From Escherichia coli (GTDB taxonomy: Bacteria > Pseudomonadota > Gammaproteobacteria > Enterobacterales > Enterobacteriaceae), in assembly GCF_030013595.1 (NCBI RefSeq), contig NZ_CP122768.1: DNA of 64,000 nt; one strand, 5' to 3'. A program made the position numbers. Within the stretch, counting starts at the first letter, position 1. The number at the start of each line of letters is the position of its first letter. This document shows, one piece after another, positions 12,001 through 18,000 of this stretch.

Positions 12001-15000
12001 CTGTTTTCTCCTGATAAATAAAAAGCCTCTGCCACGCGTTGTGACAGAGGCTGAAGCATGAAACTGACTTCAGGGATCAGTTAACGTTTTTTCCGGAAAC
12101 GGTAATCAGCAGTGGATGGTAGTCCTGGGGATTGAAAACCGATAACGGCAGACTGACACGATGGCCGTTACTTTCTTCAGTTGCTTTAATGATTTCGGTT
12201 GTGGCGACATTTTCCACGCACTCCGTTTCCAGAAATGCGTCTGTGGTTCGCGTGGCATTACTGTCACCAAAAGCTTCCGTTTCCATTTTTCTGGTCACCA
12301 GCGTCTGACCATATTTGTCTTTGAGTTGCAGAGTGATGGTGAGGGGGCCAAATCCTTCATCGTTTCCGCCATTATCCAGCCGGAACTGGTAAGCACAAAT
12401 ATTTCCCGGGAGCCATATCGTATCTGTATTGCGTATACTGATGTAACGTTGATCCTGTGCCCGGAGTGGGGCAGACCACGTTAACCCCAGAATGAAGGCG
12501 GTAATCATGCAGGTTTTGAACAGGTGAATCATGGTATTTACCTCTCTGAGTCATGACGATGACACTGACAAATCAGGTGATAAAGCGTAAAAGGCGCAGA
12601 ATAGCCGTTATGCCGGTAACTCCGGGGGTAATGCTTCTTCCAGTCGGTTAACCATATTGCCGAGATGGGATGCATCATATTCCATGACGGGGCGTTGCCT
12701 GATGATACTGACCACCAGTGGTTTGATTAACATATTGGTCGCGGCCCGTTGTTGTATACCGGCGGCGAAAATGATCTCCAGAGCATTCTGATCGATAACA
12801 CGGGCCAGATTCTCGTTCAGATTTTCAATCTCATGTCCGGTCAGCAGGAAACTGCCGGCAAGCCATGTCACCTGCTCCTGAATCATTGCCAGAATTTTGA
12901 CGCGATCTTCTTCAACCAGCGCTCCGGCAATTTTTCCTGATACAGCGGAGGCAATCATTCCCCCCAGAACACCGCCAACCACACGCCCTGTCAGTGCACC
13001 AAATGGTCCCAGTGGACTGAACAGTATCCCGCCCGCCACTGACCCGACAGCTCCACCTGCCACACCGGAAGATGCCACGGCAAGATTCCTGATGAACTGC
13101 GCACCGGAGATCCGTCCCCGCAACATTTTGATCATGTCAGGGCCGGTTGTGACAGCTATCAGTGCCAGAGATGTCACCAGCGTACCCTTCATTACTTTGT
13201 TCAGGGCACTGATATTTCCTGCACCGGTCCCCTTCTGAAGAGCCAGTCGGACAGTCGGGCTGGCAGTCGAAAAATCAATGTGCTTCAGCATACCCTGAAC
13301 AACACTGAGCCGGTGGAGTTGCTGGGTTGTGACGTAGACAGCCAGTGTGCGGGTGAAGGTTTTTCCTGCCTGGACAGCAGCTGTCTGCAGGGCAGCATCG
13401 CGATCGCCGGTGCTGAGCCAGAAGACCGATGCCGTCAGGGCAAAACTGATCCCTCCGGCCGCCAGACTGACAACCGAACCCTCGGCAATATCATAAGTGA
13501 CCGATTCGATGGTCCCGAACCGGGTGATATTACGGGCCTGAGTATAAGTCAGATGTCCCCGACGAATCAGCCGGGACGCTTCTGCGGGATCGGTTACACC
13601 GGGTACTTTACCTTCGCGGATCTTATTCCTCATGGTTTCAACAGCGCCGGCATACTGATCACGGGGGACTTCCAGTTGCATGGGGCCATTATTTCCCATG
13701 TAACGATACTGTCCGTTTTGTCCGTCGAATGCCGCACCGACGCTACGGGCTGCAGTTGAACAATATTTCGTCTGGATTTCTGTTCCGCTGACCAGTCTGT
13801 CTGCTCCATTTCTGGCATTATTATCACCGAGGATCCGTGCGTTTTTCAGACGGACTCTGTCGACAATATGGTTTCCCCGTTCAGCGGCAAACCCATGTCC
13901 CTGCCCTCCGGAAGCAAACATTTTCTCATTTGTACTCCAGGTTTCCGGCAGTTTCATGAGAATCAGACCATTCGCCGTTGCATCGGAAATAAAGCTGTTG
14001 TAAGGGCGTTCATAAATTTCCTGACACAGTGTTTCTGTTTCGCGACAAAGAGAGGAGCAGTACCATTCCGGATCCGGCTTATGATTTTCCGGGGCATGAT
14101 GTACTTCTGTCAGCCCGCAGGAGGCACAGATACGAAGCTCATCCACGTGATGGAATGATACAAAACGGCGACCTTCTGAAAAGGGATACCAGTCACCGCC
14201 GTCCAGGCAACGATCGAGAAAATCGTCATTCGCTTCCGGTGATAAATTCAGGCGGTTCCGGAAGAGCGTTTTCAGTTCATCAGGTGTGAATGACAGGTTC
14301 TCTTTCAACTGTTCGTTAAACCCTGCCATGTTTCTTTCATACCAGGCATTGTTCAGTAACCAGTTTCCGTCTGCCAGTTCAAATTCCCTCAGCTCTCCCC
14401 GGGAAATCCGTTGAGAAATGAGCGTCAGCCAGATGCGCTCCGTCAGTGAGTCAGGAAGGCTGTAATCGTTTTGCAAACTGGTCAGCCACGATTTACTGTT
14501 GAGCACCGGTTGTTCTTCCAGTGTCTGGCTGATGGCACAGGTCAGTTTTTTCAGCGCCTGGATCTGGCTGGCCGCCCATAGCAGCGTCACTAATGCAGCC
14601 AGCCAGTACAACAACCCGCCCCACCACATCAGTGACGGTGAAATATCGTACTGTAACGCGATCAATGGTGCGCATGCAGAACACGCCATAAGGAAAAAGG
14701 CAGTATAAAAACAGCAGTAATACCCGTTAATTTCCTTGCTGATATCTTCTGGTGTGATCCCGTTCTGCTGAATGTTTTTGATCTGCAGGGGAACAGCCAG
14801 CAGACCACCGGCGAGAGCGGTGGTCAGAATAAATTTCACAGAGTCAAAGGTGTGAGCCTCCAGCGCGATATGTTTACCATCAAGTCCCCACATGAAGCTG
14901 ATGATCATTCCGGCAATCGTCAGAAATACGCCTGCCAGCCAGCGAATATGGAACAACCGGGTTATGCGTTCGGTGATATAGCCAGCCAGTAAGGCCGGGC

Positions 15001-18000
15001 CGAACAGACACAGCAATATGAGCCCTGCCAGCGCAGAAGCCGTGCTGATTAATGCTCTGAACAAAAGGCGAAGAATGGCAAATCCTGCGATCAGCAGGAT
15101 CAGCGCGCCGACTATCTGTAACATAGTCACTCCGTGATGAATATCATGTTATTGTTAATGCCAGCGAATGTGGCGTTGAAGATCCGTTGCGCCGGTCCGG
15201 GTCCCGGTCATGATGACCGGGACCACAGAGAGGCGATGGTTCTGTCAGAAGGTCACATTCAGTGTGGCCTGACCGTTATACCCTTCAGCGCTGCTGCCGC
15301 TGACGCTGTGGGCATAACCGGCCTGAACGCCCAGGGTGATATTTTCCCGGACACGGGCTTCCAGTCCGGCCTGCAGGTCCAGTGATGTGCCATTCTGTGA
15401 GGGAGAGAACGTCATCCCGCTGCCTGCAGTGGAAGTCCCCACACGCATATCTCCCCGGGAGCTGAAGGTGCGGATAACAGAAGGCTGTACCCACCAGTTC
15501 ACCGGTAATTCACTCACACTGTGTTTTGCACTGTCACGCAGGGGGGCACGGGATGAGGTGCCTTCGCCAAAGGTCATATCGTTGTGGCTGCCCAGACGGA
15601 AACCGGCACGCACATGTTGTGCACTGCCATGCCCGAACTTCACATAACCGGCGTTGTCCTTACCGTCATCCAGGGAAAGTCCCTGCCAGGTATACTGCAG
15701 TTGTGGCTCCAGCATCAGGTTGTCAGTGATACTGAAGGGCAGACCGGTTTCCAGTGAGCCCAGCCAGCCCCAGCCCCGGGCGCGGAAGTCGTTATTGTCC
15801 GATGACGCTTTCATGCTGTGGCGGGTTCCCTGTGCCACAATGTCAGCCCACAGGCCGGAGGACGTGTGTACCAGATTCAGGTATCCGCCCAGGCTGCCGG
15901 CATCATCCCGGACCGTGCCGGCACGGGAGCCGTCATCATCCTTAACATCAACGGAAGAATGGCCAGCAGCACCATATACCCCCGCGGTCACAGACATACC
16001 GGCAACCTCTGTTCTCATCAGGTCACCCTCCAGACGGACGAATCCATAGCTGCCGCTGCTTTCCGGCGTGGCCCCACGGGCAATACCGCCATTGTTATCG
16101 TGACCGAGATGACCGCCCTGAATGCTGAGACGGACGCTGTTGTTTTCACCATTTACACCGGTCTGATGGCTGCGGGAGCCTGCCACAATCCGGTCATAGT
16201 CCATTGCCTGTGTCAGCATGGAGGCATACAGGGGGACTTCTGCACGATAAGCATTTTCACTGCGCAGATACCAGCTCTCATCACTGTCCCGGTTGAGGGA
16301 GTAGTTAAAGGCACCGGCCTGCAGCCTGTTCCCCTGGACAAAGGCCCCTTCCTCCGTGGTGGCACCGTTAATGGCTTCAACCACCTGAATACCCTTACCG
16401 CTGGTCGCCAGCCCCGACGCACTGTTGCCGGCGTTCACCAGGTTCAGGATGGTTTTTCCGGTTGCCCTGCCACCGTCAATGACCAGTCTGTCAGCATTGT
16501 TCTGTGCCATATCCGGGCGTACACGCAGGCTGATGGTGCCATTCTGCCCGTTCAGGTTTTTCACTTTCAGGGTTGCCGGTACGAACTTCCCTGTGCGGGT
16601 GGAGGTGAAATGAATCTGTCCGGCATGGCTGAGGTCATCCACCACCGACTGCACCGTGGCGTTATCGGGGATATTCCAGGTGGCACCGGAGGCGAGAGTG
16701 ACATTCGTGGGGTCAATGGCACCGTTCAGCACAGTGCTGCCGGTCAGCTTCAGGGCTGTACCGCGCTGAGCAATGACATCCGTGGTGACGGTACTGTCGT
16801 TCAGCGTCAGCGTGCCTTCATTCAGGTTGACGGCTTTCTGGGTGAGTGTGGTGTTGCTGACAGTGAGTGTGCCACTTCCTGATTTTTCCACGCTGCCGTT
16901 ACCGGTGAGAGAGCCTCCCTGCAGGAGCGCATCGCCTTCACGGATGGTCAGGGTATCGTTGTTCACCGTCTTCCCGGAAAGGGTAAGTATGGCGCCGTTA
17001 TTCAGCGTGGTGGTGCCCGCCAGTGTGCCGCCCCTGGCGGTGAACAGTCCGCCATTTACCGTGGTATCCGTGGCCGTATCACCGGCGTTCAGCGTGAATG
17101 AACTGCCTTTTTCCAGCATCAGGGCATCCGCCTGACCGCCTCCGATACTGAATGCCTTTCCGTCGCTCCGGGTACCACTGACAGCGGCACCGGAATCGGC
17201 CAGCAGTACACCGCCATTTCCCATGGATACGGTGGTGGCGGTGCCACCGTTGCGGACATCCAGTGTTCCGCCATCATCCACGCGGGTATTAGTGGCTGTG
17301 TGTCCGGTCAGCACATCCAGGCGTCCGCCATTTTCCAGTACGACATTATCAGCTTTACCCTCCACAACAGAGAATGCTCCCAGGCGGTTTATGCCGGTAA
17401 CGGTTGCAGCCGTACTGGTAACCAGTGCGCCGCCCTGCTTCAGGGTGACATTCGTGGCTGTACCACCGGCGTCCACCTGCAGTCTGCCCTTCTGATTAAC
17501 GGTGGTATTCCCGGCCACACCCCCGTTTTTGACAATCTGCCAGCCGTCACTGTTCACAACAGTGTCAGACGCTGTACCGCCGTTGTGCACATACTGGTAT
17601 CCCCCATTCAGCGTGGTATCCAGTGCGTGACCATGTACAGTCTGGTCGCCGCCGGCATAAACCACAGTGGTATTTGCCGTTCCTTCAGCTCTCACAATCT
17701 GGCGACCGTTTTTATTGATGGTTGTGCGTACGGCATCCCCGCGAACAAACTGCCCGGTATCACCGTTTTCTGCATCCGGTCCCCCTTCCGCCCCGGTATT
17801 AACAACGGTATCCGTTGCCACTGTACCGGGCTTGACGACCTGCCAGCCCTTATCATTAATGACGGTTCCTGTGGCTATCGCCCCCTCATGCATCCACTGT
17901 TCGCCACCATTCAGCGTGGTGTTCACTGCCCGTCCCTGAAGGCTCTGTCCGCCTCCGGCACTGATAACCGTGTCTGAGACACTTCCACCGGGGTTCACTC

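What the first reader, a model, noticed from the sequence alone, without database searches (positions are those of the whole stretch)
12608..15130. 840-aa YeeR-like membrane protein, far longer than remembered for K-12 YeeR, next to Ag43
The protein combines an N-terminal polytopic membrane domain, a Cys cluster (CASCG...CSSLC...LCQ) and a C-terminal Gly/Ala-rich glycine-zipper-like hydrophobic region. It lies directly between flu and the small exported protein. Its function is unknown despite being widespread, and the glycine-zipper segment is reminiscent of pore-forming or membrane-perturbing domains.
Basis: partly seen in the sequence, partly recalled or inferred. Interest (0 to 1): 0.4.

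Follow-up and report, generated by a model that had tools for sequence, protein, structure and literature searches.

The report
Full-length YeeR, uncharacterised membrane protein
This is the intact 838-residue form of the E. coli island gene yeeR (K-12 keeps only a deletion remnant): a real, conserved inner-membrane protein of untested function whose predicted restriction-nuclease-like domain, glycine-zipper membrane region and gene neighbours in other bacteria suggest, without proving, an anti-phage or anti-mobile-DNA role.

Summary
An uninterrupted ORF lies at 12608-15130 (- strand): 840 codons from a GTG, more probably 838 aa from the ATG at 15124. It sits between agn43/flu and irmA in a CP4-44-type island.

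It is not a fusion artefact. About 78 colinear orthologues of 805-882 aa exist in Gamma- and Betaproteobacteria, and dN/dS between two E. coli alleles is 0.21.

K-12 YeeR (510 aa) is a remnant of a 3,357-bp deletion (window 10247-13603). That truncation, the agn43-yeeR-irmA operon and the "uncharacterised" status are already published. Pfam already has a YeeR_C family (PF27347).

New here is a predicted domain map: a six-segment membrane domain, a likely tandem winged helix, a 4-Cys zinc ribbon, a PD-(D/E)xK-fold domain with invariant E417/D444/Q453-x-K455, a glycine-zipper membrane region and a helical tail.

The C-terminal module is a large bacterial family. It is fused to varied N-terminal domains, often follows WYL regulators, and is distantly related to the PADLOC candidate defence protein PDC-M09B. 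In Enterobacter and Serratia, PDC-M09A/B lies directly upstream of yeeR.

The best guess is a membrane-embedded conflict-system protein. This is inference only, with no experimental support. As a feature it is already known; interest is moderate.

The parts
12608..15130 (-). Full-length yeeR ORF: 840 codons from the GTG, with the stop at 12608-12610. The probable true CDS is 12608-15124 (838 aa).
   Evidence: ORF. (GGAG at 15133-15130, 5-nt spacer, ATG at 15124). (RefSeq CDS of 838 aa in an identical genome). (dN/dS 0.21).
14513..15130 (-). N-terminal polytopic membrane domain, residues about 1-206, with six hydrophobic segments. The positive-inside rule puts the N-terminus and residue ~190 onward in the cytoplasm.
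   Evidence: hydropathy. (five long helices, pLDDT above 94). Topology is my inference from the K/R distribution. Sequence is poorly conserved even among orthologues.
14129..14512 (-). Two helix-helix-hairpin units, residues about 207-334: a likely tandem winged-helix domain.
   Evidence: DSSP pattern, pLDDT 90-97. Weak Foldseek matches to tandem winged-helix proteins: ESCRT-II 3cuq_B (prob 0.97) and SelB 2v9v; PSV transcriptional regulator Q6ZYJ9 (prob 0.99, E 0.036). All E-values are above 0.01, so the assignment is provisional.
14015..14128 (-). Cys cluster, a zinc-ribbon-like element: C335-x2-C338 ... C358-x3-C362, plus C369 (residues about 335-372).
   Evidence: positions. (conserved CxxCG...EWxCSxxCxxTExxC in orthologues). 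Some family members hit zinc-ribbon Pfam families.
13490..13915 (-). Restriction-endonuclease-like (PD-(D/E)xK-fold) domain, residues about 406-547. This is the start of the YeeR_C module. Invariant residues are E417 (in GHGFAAE), D444 (in NGADR), Q453-x-K455 (in IQTKY) and E487 (in EVPxDxY).
12911..13489 (-). Membrane region of the YeeR_C module, residues about 548-740. It has one clear TM helix at 551-572, less hydrophobic helices, and a Gly-zipper helical hairpin at about 676-733.
   Evidence: hydropathy. (helices; pLDDT below 50 at 686-737 in model numbering). (glycine-zipper family similarities). (C-terminal LeoB-like match in 24 of 83 homologues).
12611..12910 (-). C-terminal helical domain, residues about 741-840, with a conserved EDD motif and KPxVVxxVKQRP.
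   Evidence: helices, pLDDT 78-94. (conserved columns D741, E766, P803 and R812 in alignment numbering).
10247..13603 (.). Segment absent from E. coli K-12 (3,357 bp). Its loss truncates YeeR after residue 509, inside the nuclease-like domain. It also removes irmA, the DUF905, DUF932 and antirestriction genes, and the start of yeeS.
   Evidence: BLAST junctions 10246 / 13604. (annotations). (K-12 protein ends ...REGKV-EER*). Published in PMC4807369 and PMC6480617.
12024..12052 (-). Terminator-like hairpin followed by a T-run downstream of irmA: the likely 3' end of the agn43-yeeR-irmA transcription unit.
   Evidence: Operon structure from PMC4807369 (RT-PCR in strain EC958).
18530..18590 (-). 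agn43 regulatory region carrying the cluster of GATC sites (Dam/OxyR phase switch) that would also drive yeeR if it is co-transcribed.
   Evidence: sequence GATCGAT...GATCG...GATCGATC. (IsrC / Rfam IS102 RNA at 18385-18588). Regulation from PMC4807369 and PMC9431211.

Best explanation
SHOWN. This is the intact form of yeeR, one real gene for an inner-membrane protein of about 838 aa. It is carried as cargo by CP4-44-type integrative islands. The K-12 'YeeR' is a deletion remnant that stops in the middle of the nuclease-like domain.

PREDICTED from models and alignments. An N-terminal six-segment membrane domain is followed by a cytoplasmic stretch: a likely tandem winged helix, then a 4-Cys zinc ribbon. 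After that comes the widespread YeeR_C module (Pfam PF27347). The module consists of a PD-(D/E)xK-fold domain with an invariant E...D...QxK constellation, a membrane region ending in a glycine-zipper helical hairpin, and a conserved helical tail.

INFERRED function. YeeR is most likely a self-contained conflict-system protein acting against phage or other mobile DNA. On this reading, its cytoplasmic nucleic-acid-binding and nuclease-like parts, held at the inner membrane, recognise and possibly cut foreign nucleic acid. Recognition would be coupled to the glycine-zipper region, which either perturbs the membrane (abortive infection) or only anchors and oligomerises the enzyme.

In E. coli the gene would be expressed phase-variably, because it is co-transcribed with agn43.

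My confidence by step: one real gene and a K-12 remnant, about 0.97. PD-(D/E)xK fold, about 0.8. Conflict or defence role, about 0.4. Membrane permeabilisation as the output, about 0.2. The single confidence figure given for this explanation (0.4) refers to the functional claim, a conflict or defence role.
For: One real gene:
- A single ORF.
- About 78 colinear orthologues of 805-882 aa in Enterobacteriaceae, Serratia, Shewanella, Pseudomonas, Vibrio, Methylomonas, Herbaspirillum, Cupriavidus and Bordetella.
- dN/dS of 0.21, with purifying selection on both halves.
- K-12 deletion junctions.

Fold:
- Full-length AF2 model, mean pLDDT 85.
- Domain model, pLDDT 92.6 and pTM 0.87, with alpha-beta-beta-beta-alpha-beta order.
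- E417, D444, Q453 and K455 are invariant in 150 family members. They sit on helix 1, at the start of strand 2 and on strand 3, where the superfamily's catalytic residues lie.
- The same E / D / QxK residues recur in the PDC-M09B family (HGEIAE, D..QSKF).

Conflict-system context:
- The C-terminal module forms a family of 1,161 clusters at 50% identity.
- It is fused to swapped N-terminal domains. One is the N-terminal domain of the Bunzi protein BnzA (E 2e-17). Others are Sel1/TPR and TerB.
- A WYL regulator lies within four genes in 16 of 80 genome loci, and 14 of these are upstream on the same strand.
- PADLOC PDC-M09B models match the module (query E 7e-6; homologues down to 5e-13).
- In Enterobacter and Serratia the order is WYL - PDC-M09A - PDC-M09B - yeeR, with a 36-39 nt gap before yeeR.
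- Neighbours of full-length orthologues include Azaca, Dnd, PD-T4-6, a GajB-type helicase, BrxE, a TIR protein, integrases and IS66.
Against: - There is no experimental datum on YeeR function. PDC-M09 itself is only a computational candidate, and no paper in the library mentions it.
- The canonical acidic residue of (D/E)xK is an invariant Gln, so the domain may bind rather than cut.
- Homology to PDC-M09B is distant: hhalign probability is 67% over 57 columns.
- Several orthologue loci have ordinary housekeeping neighbours. Defence-gene enrichment was not measured against a background.
- The glycine-zipper helices are modelled with pLDDT below 50. Topology of residues 573-640 is ambiguous, because that stretch is rich in K/R although a TM helix precedes it.
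- In the window no regulator or partner gene of the kind seen elsewhere is present.
Confidence: 0.4

Rival explanations
1. A membrane-tethered nuclease only. The glycine-zipper region serves purely as anchor and oligomerisation surface. The protein degrades DNA entering at the inner membrane (phage injection, conjugation), in the manner of restriction or entry exclusion, without harming the cell.
For: The PD-(D/E)xK fold and invariant E/D/QxK. The predicted cytoplasmic position next to the membrane. The winged-helix and zinc-ribbon parts, which suit nucleic-acid binding. The island also carries antirestriction, DUF932 and RadC genes typical of transferable elements.
Against: Nothing shows how self would be told from non-self; no methylase or modification partner is present. 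Gln replaces the catalytic acid. The roughly 190-residue membrane region and the helical tail are as conserved as the nuclease-like domain (dN/dS 0.08), which is more than a simple anchor would need.
Confidence: 0.2
2. A non-catalytic, membrane-anchored DNA-binding protein. It would serve the island itself, for example by controlling excision or maintenance or by acting as a membrane-bound regulator like ToxR/CadC-type proteins. The nuclease-like domain would be degenerate.
Against: The YeeR_C module occurs without the winged-helix part and outside recognisable islands in many phyla. Strict invariance of E417, D444, Q453 and K455 across 150 sequences suggests an active or ligand-binding site rather than decay. 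In Enterobacteriaceae the orthologue lies in the same kind of island but in a different position.
Confidence: 0.15
3. [quoted passage not shown] It would help Ag43-mediated aggregation or biofilm formation, or IrmA export.
For: Co-transcription with agn43 and irmA in EC958 and CFT073 (PMC4807369). The three genes lie together in about a third of E. coli genomes. An IrmA gene also sits directly upstream of yeeR in a Serratia island that has no Ag43.
Against: IrmA is released, and Ag43 functions, in MG1655 derivatives that lack intact YeeR (PMC4807369). Orthologues in Pseudomonas, Vibrio, Bordetella, Herbaspirillum and others have neither Ag43 nor IrmA nearby. The conserved domains are predicted to be cytoplasmic and of nucleic-acid-enzyme type. 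In strain 042 irmA has its own promoter (PMC9431211).
Confidence: 0.07
4. The 840-aa ORF is an artefact: two genes falsely joined by a frameshift or assembly error.
For: None was found. The only prompt is that the well-known K-12 protein has 510 aa.
Against: An identical or near-identical full-length ORF occurs in about 1,800 complete E. coli genomes. Colinear orthologues exist at 29-67% identity in many genera. The AF2 model is continuous and confident across the supposed junction. K-12's shorter form is explained by a mapped 3,357-bp deletion.
Confidence: 0.01

Closest known systems
E. coli K-12 YeeR (b2001, 510 aa) and the RefSeq 'YeeR family protein' / Pfam PF27347 YeeR_C
   Same: It is the same gene at the same locus. 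Residues 3-509 are 100% identical to K-12 YeeR. The 99%-identical cluster representative carries PF27347.
   Different: K-12 lacks residues 510-840. That is the end of the nuclease-like domain, the whole membrane / glycine-zipper region and the helical tail, which make up most of what Pfam calls YeeR_C. K-12 phenotypes therefore say little about the intact protein.
PADLOC candidate defence system PDC-M09 (PDC-M09A + PDC-M09B)
   Same: PDC-M09B models match the YeeR_C module co-linearly. It shares the HGxxAE / D / Qx K / (E/H)-(V/I)-P-x-D motifs. PDC-M09A is a glycine-zipper membrane protein resembling the YeeR Gly-rich hairpin. In Enterobacter and Serratia, PDC-M09A/B sits directly upstream of yeeR behind a WYL regulator.
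   Different: The relationship is distant (query E 7e-6; hhalign probability 67%). No PDC-M09A or PDC-M09B gene flanks yeeR in the window. YeeR carries in one chain what PDC-M09 splits over two proteins, and adds a 400-residue N-terminal half. PDC-M09 has no published experimental validation that I could find.
PD-(D/E)xK (restriction-endonuclease-like) phosphodiesterase superfamily
Glycine-zipper membrane proteins (Gly-zipper_Omp, DUF1269, C19orf12, SlyB/YcfJ type, Gly-rich segments of tape-measure proteins) and the C-terminal membrane part of LeoB/LeoBC (PADLOC models; I take these to be the dynamin-like Eleos defence proteins, from memory)
   Same: Repeated GxxxG/A helices at about 686-740. 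Weak profile matches to these families in the query or its homologues.
   Different: The matches are low-complexity-like and short. YeeR has no dynamin GTPase domain and no lipoprotein signal. None of these families contains the nuclease-like domain.

Membership tests
YeeR family / Pfam PF27347 (YeeR_C) | Significant match to the PF27347 profile | tested here: met
   Indirect. PF27347 is not in the local Pfam copy (one search shows no hit). It is precomputed for P0001, which is 99% identical over 100% of the query, and for nearly all homologues. The name YeeR_C is shown.
YeeR family / Pfam PF27347 (YeeR_C) | Orthology with K-12 yeeR (same locus, same sequence) | tested here: met
   Residues 3-509 are identical to K-12 YeeR. 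Flanking genes sbmC-yeeA-tmaR ... agn43 are syntenic.
PD-(D/E)xK nuclease superfamily | Alpha-beta-beta-beta-alpha-beta core fold | tested here: met
PD-(D/E)xK nuclease superfamily | Catalytic motif D ... (D/E)-x-K, often with an upstream E | tested here: inconclusive
   E417, D444 and K455 are invariant and correctly placed, but the middle acid is an invariant Gln (Q453). E487 on strand 4 could substitute, but it is His in PDC-M09B.
PD-(D/E)xK nuclease superfamily | Metal-dependent phosphodiesterase activity | not testable with these tools
   Needs biochemistry.
PADLOC PDC-M09 candidate defence system | Strong match to a PDC-M09B model | tested here: not met
   Only weak matches: E 7e-6 and 4e-5, 20-23 bits. 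A true PDC-M09B scores 704-710 bits. YeeR is a distant relative, not a member.
PADLOC PDC-M09 candidate defence system | Adjacent PDC-M09A partner gene | tested here: not met
   The window neighbours are agn43 and irmA. The IrmA gene gave no PADLOC match at all, and the YeeP GTPase gene further upstream gave only weak matches to other families, none to PDC-M09. The partner is present only in Enterobacter and Serratia loci.
Bunzi (BnzA) | BnzA N-terminal domain / TerB domain | tested here: not met
   The BnzA model matches only the N-terminal extensions of some other YeeR_C proteins. It does not match the E. coli protein.
LeoB / LeoBC (dynamin-like; PADLOC models) | Dynamin-type GTPase domain plus a C-terminal membrane part | tested here: not met
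   There is no GTPase domain in YeeR. Only the C-terminal membrane part of LeoB matches, and only in 24 of 83 homologues.
Winged-helix DNA-binding domains (tandem) | Helix-turn-helix followed by a beta-hairpin wing, occurring twice | tested here: inconclusive
   The DSSP pattern fits. Foldseek probabilities are 0.89-0.99 to tandem winged-helix proteins, but E-values are 0.04-0.35.

The most novel reading that the evidence does not exclude
The YeeR_C module, a PD-(D/E)xK-fold domain with an E-D-QxK site fused to a glycine-zipper membrane region, defines a large class of membrane-embedded immune effectors that has not been characterised experimentally. It would be related to the two-gene PDC-M09 candidate. 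Full-length YeeR would be a single-protein defence system that E. coli switches ON and OFF together with the Ag43 adhesin through the Dam/OxyR phase switch. Laboratory K-12 would have lost it by deletion.
Probability: 0.3. Interest if true: 0.6.

Novelty: already known. Interest (0 to 1): 0.35.

Why it matters
yeeR is a 'y-ome' gene whose only widely studied allele, the K-12 one, is a broken remnant. Negative or odd K-12 results therefore do not bear on the real protein, which about a third of E. coli genomes carry intact, many of them pathogens.

The predicted domain map turns 'unknown membrane protein' into testable proposals. One is nuclease or DNA-binding activity of residues about 200-547, using E417, D444 and K455 point mutants. 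Another is phage and conjugation challenge of the cloned 838-aa gene.

If the defence reading holds, it would add a widespread membrane-anchored nuclease-type effector family. It would also link phase-variable aggregation (Ag43) to phase-variable immunity. If it fails, the gene remains an ordinary uncharacterised island cargo gene.

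Tried and rejected
- Local Pfam and NCBIfam scans of the protein gave nothing significant, only C19orf12 below its cut-off. PHROGs gave only a tape-measure Gly-rich match.
- Sequence searches of the PDB, with the single sequence and with a profile, gave no informative hit apart from a Gly-rich tape-measure segment.
- Foldseek of the full-length model against PDB and BFVD gave no match with E at or below 0.001. Only winged-helix-like local hits appeared.
- The afdb_sample library was not available. One alignment was too large for structure prediction and for a Pfam scan.
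- hhalign of the YeeR profile against a single PDC-M09B sequence was uninformative. It became marginal with a family alignment.
- A search with the N-terminal 398 residues alone returned only E. coli fragments. I therefore could not learn whether the N-terminal half occurs with other C-terminal modules.
- I looked for a universal partner gene next to YeeR_C genes in 80 genomes and found none. Only subfamily-specific small ORFs, WYL and XRE regulators, a Sel1/TPR protein and TerB recurred.
- Literature searches for PDC-M09 and for 'yeeR' with 'phage defense' found nothing. The Bunzi and modularity papers do not mention YeeR.
- The idea that YeeR serves Ag43 or IrmA was considered and given low weight, for the reasons listed under the rival explanations.
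- Numbering slip: alignment A1 and the full-length model were made from 12608-15127. That range drops the first (GTG) codon and keeps the stop, so their numbering is the 840-aa numbering minus 1. All residue numbers in this report are corrected to the 840-aa ORF.

Full report
NUMBERING. Residues are numbered on the 840-aa ORF, with the GTG at 15130 as residue 1. RefSeq 838-aa numbering is 2 lower. Alignment A1 and the full-length AF2 model are 1 lower, because I cut the first codon by mistake when making them.

One search shows one uninterrupted ORF at 12608..15130 on the - strand, 840 aa from a GTG. GGAG at 15133-15130 is followed after 5 nt by the ATG at 15124. The product is therefore most likely 838 aa, as RefSeq annotates it in strain cq9, which is 100% identical over this stretch (WP_001348608.1, 'hypothetical protein'; some genomes say 'YeeR family protein').

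- Six hydrophobic segments lie within residues 1-190.
- The cysteines are C335-x2-C338, C358-x3-C362 and C369.
- A Gly/Ala-rich GxxxG-type stretch lies at about 686-740.

Upstream is agn43/flu. Its real start is the ATG at 18364, so the 1,091-aa ORF is over-extended. Downstream is an IrmA-family exported protein (Pfam IrmA, E 2e-37).

2. IT IS NOT A FUSION ARTEFACT, AND THE K-12 DIFFERENCE IS A KNOWN DELETION
The window is the CP4-44-type island next to sbmC-yeeA-tmaR. K-12 lacks window 10247-13603, which is 3,357 bp. Its 510-aa YeeR equals residues 3-509 here followed by EER-stop. The same deletion removed irmA, the DUF905, DUF932 and antirestriction genes, and the first codons of yeeS.

A second, opposite truncation is seen in an ST131 genome and similar strains. 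It lacks 13738-15152, so the N-terminal part is gone and the gene is annotated as a pseudogene.

A copy covering at least 80% of the query is in 1,794 of 5,426 complete E. coli genomes. Colinear orthologues of 805-882 aa at 29-67% identity occur in Enterobacteriaceae, Serratia, Shewanella, Pseudomonas, Vibrio, Methylomonas, Herbaspirillum, Cupriavidus, Bordetella and others. Two E. coli alleles that differ by 3.3% give dN/dS of 0.21, with purifying selection in both halves.

The literature already states several of these points:
- MG1655 yeeR is disrupted by a large deletion.
- agn43-yeeR-irmA is one OxyR-repressed transcript in EC958 and CFT073.
- YeeR is not needed for IrmA release and is 'uncharacterized' (all three from PMC4807369).
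- PMC6480617 repeats the K-12 truncation.
- PMC9431211 shows that in strain 042 irmA has its own promoter.

As a feature, then, this is already known.

3. ANATOMY (PREDICTED)
A 77-sequence alignment gave a full-length AF2 model with mean pLDDT 85 and pTM 0.59. Its parts are as follows.

(i) Residues about 1-206: five long helices covering six hydrophobic segments, pLDDT above 94. Sequence conservation is poor. The K/R distribution puts the N-terminus and everything after about 190 in the cytoplasm (my inference).

(ii) Residues about 207-334: two helix-helix-hairpin units. The only structural neighbours are tandem winged-helix proteins: ESCRT-II, SelB and the Pyrobaculum virus regulator. Probabilities are 0.89-0.99 but E-values are 0.04-0.35. 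I call this a likely tandem winged helix.

(iii) Residues 335-372: the Cys cluster, conserved as CxxCG...EWxCSxxCxxTExxC. It is zinc-ribbon-like.

(iv) Residues about 406-547: a compact alpha/beta domain.

(v) Residues about 548-740: helices with one clear TM segment (551-572) and a Gly-zipper hairpin. The hairpin is modelled at pLDDT below 50.

(vi) Residues about 741-840: a conserved helical tail.

Parts (iv) to (vi) correspond to Pfam PF27347 'YeeR_C'. That family is newer than the local Pfam copy but is precomputed on the homologues.

4. THE ALPHA/BETA DOMAIN HAS A RESTRICTION-ENDONUCLEASE FOLD
Modelled alone, residues 398-547 give pLDDT 92.6 and pTM 0.87. The element order is alpha-beta-beta-beta-alpha-beta.

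Across 150 family members the invariant residues are G413, E417, G442, D444, Q453, K455, Y477, E487, V488 and D547. E417 is on helix 1, D444 is at the start of strand 2, and Q453-x-K455 is on strand 3. These are the canonical positions of E...D...(D/E)xK, with Gln in place of the second acid.

No sequence profile (Pfam, NCBIfam, PDB) recognises the domain. The fold assignment is therefore reasonably secure, but catalytic competence is open.

5. THE C-TERMINAL MODULE IS A LARGE, MODULAR FAMILY WITH CONFLICT-SYSTEM HALLMARKS
An exhaustive search with residues 396-840 found 1,161 clusters at 50% identity with E at or below 1e-3, and 583 at or below 1e-30. A pattern scan of one genome per species confirmed relatives in 403 stretches. 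They span Proteobacteria, many Firmicutes, Lentisphaerae, Riflebacteria, cyanobacteria, Chlamydiae and Campylobacterota.

The module occurs alone, as proteins of about 470-520 aa. It also occurs behind or ahead of other extension domains:
- the N-terminal domain of the Bunzi defence protein BnzA (E 2e-17);
- Sel1/TPR repeats, TerB, DUF805 and zinc ribbons.

The YeeR-type N-terminal half is confined to the 805-882-aa clade.

In 80 genome loci no universal partner gene exists. A WYL-domain regulator lies within four genes in 16 loci, and 14 of these are upstream on the same strand. XRE regulators recur too.

PADLOC models of the candidate system protein PDC-M09B match the module co-linearly. The query scores E 7e-6 and 4e-5. 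Homologues reach 5e-13, and one is matched over residues 27-371 against profile positions 68-407.

A PDC-M09B family alignment shares HGEIAE, D..(V)QSKF and HIPKD with YeeR's GHGFAAE, D..IQTKY and EVPxD. hhalign gives probability 67% and E 5e-5. PDC-M09A is a glycine-zipper membrane protein that aligns with YeeR's Gly-rich hairpin.

In two Enterobacter genomes and one Serratia genome the order is WYL - PDC-M09A (E 1e-119) - PDC-M09B (E 2e-214) - yeeR, with only 36-39 nt before yeeR. YeeR thus looks like a distant, fused relative, and sometimes a neighbour, of that two-gene candidate.

Other full-length orthologues lie beside a range of genes:
- DndBCDE;
- BrxE, a GIY-YIG protein and a DUF6361/PLD-type cluster inside an integrase-bounded element;
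- HicAB, a TIR protein and IS66;
- Azaca ZacB/ZacC, PDC-M27C, DndG, PD-T4-6, a GajB-type helicase and MADS components.

Some orthologues have plain housekeeping neighbours. I did not measure enrichment against a background.

6. WHAT IT IS NOT TIED TO
Outside E. coli the Ag43 linkage disappears. IrmA stays adjacent only in one Serratia island, in the opposite order and without Ag43. Together with the published finding that IrmA release and Ag43 function do not need YeeR, this argues against an operon-specific envelope role.

7. MOST LIKELY MECHANISM
Shown:
- It is a real, selected, single gene.
- K-12 carries a remnant.
- It is island cargo.

Predicted with fair confidence:
- The cytoplasmic nucleic-acid-type domains (winged helix, zinc ribbon, PD-(D/E)xK fold) lie between two membrane regions.

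Inferred:
- It is a self-contained conflict-system protein that recognises, and perhaps cuts, foreign nucleic acid at the inner membrane.
- The glycine-zipper region either permeabilises the membrane (abortive infection) or only anchors and oligomerises the enzyme.
- In this strain the agn43 regulatory region, with its GATC cluster and IsrC, is intact. If yeeR is co-transcribed as in EC958, it would be phase-variable.

I put about 0.4 on a defence or conflict role and about 0.2 on membrane permeabilisation as the output. The rivals are a nuclease-only restriction or exclusion factor (0.2), a non-catalytic membrane-anchored DNA-binding or island-maintenance protein (0.15), an Ag43/IrmA accessory (0.07) and an artefact (0.01).

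8. VERDICT
The 'unexpected length' is a known K-12 deletion, and the family already has a Pfam entry and RefSeq names. The added value here is the predicted domain map, the restriction-endonuclease-like fold with an invariant E-D-QxK site, and the link to PDC-M09 and WYL-regulated loci. All of that is computational.

Novelty class: already known as a feature and family, with function unknown. Interest: 0.35.

Noticed in passing
window 15200-15224 (- strand), between the agn43 stop (15245-15247) and the yeeR start: A perfect 11-bp stem with a 3-nt loop (GGTCCCGGTCA-TCA-TGACCGGGACC) and no following T-run. It is not a canonical terminator. It may be an mRNA-processing or stabilising element, or a REP-like element, inside the operon.
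   Followed up: no
window 18385-18590 (- strand): The agn43 leader matches Rfam IS102 RNA / IsrC (253 bits). The upstream regulatory region carries the GATC cluster of the Dam/OxyR phase switch. The mechanical 1,091-aa flu ORF (15245-18520) is over-extended; the annotated start is the ATG at 18364.
   Followed up: partly
window 18692-19603 (- strand): The YeeP-type GTPase gene is intact here (a 303-aa ORF) but is a 5'-truncated pseudogene in K-12. It gives weak PADLOC matches to the dynamin-like LeoBC and LeoA models (E 2e-8 and 3e-5).
   Followed up: no
window 9068-9361 (- strand), compared with K-12 cbeA: The antitoxin next to cbtA is annotated as a shorter 'YeeU family antitoxin' in the identical genome (306 nt). 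K-12 cbeA is 369 nt, so the N-terminus or start differs.
   Followed up: no
L017 5568-10000, L026 and L023 (Enterobacter sp., Serratia sp.); also L012-L014: A four-gene same-strand array: WYL regulator - PDC-M09A - PDC-M09B - yeeR orthologue, with 36-39 nt before yeeR. In L023 yeeR is broken into 72-aa and 485-aa pieces. In L012-L014 the array lies next to DndBCDE.
   Followed up: partly
L015 9163-12520 (Serratia sp. UGAL515B_01): An IrmA-family gene lies directly upstream of the yeeR orthologue. The island has GTPase, DUF932, antirestriction, RadC and CbtA/CbeA genes but no Ag43. The yeeR-irmA pairing may therefore be older than the agn43 linkage.
   Followed up: no
L016 (MAG labelled Oxalobacter sp., contig JAHAYL010000019.1, 4,050 bp): The contig carries agn43-yeeR-irmA at 99% identity to E. 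coli. It is probably a mis-binned E. coli contig in that MAG.
   Followed up: no
L003 (ST131-type strain Ecol_542) compared with window 13738-15152: A second recurrent yeeR lesion removes the promoter-proximal 464 codons and the intergenic region, leaving a 3' pseudogene. The same 57%-coverage pattern appears in several ST131-type and similar genomes.
   Followed up: partly
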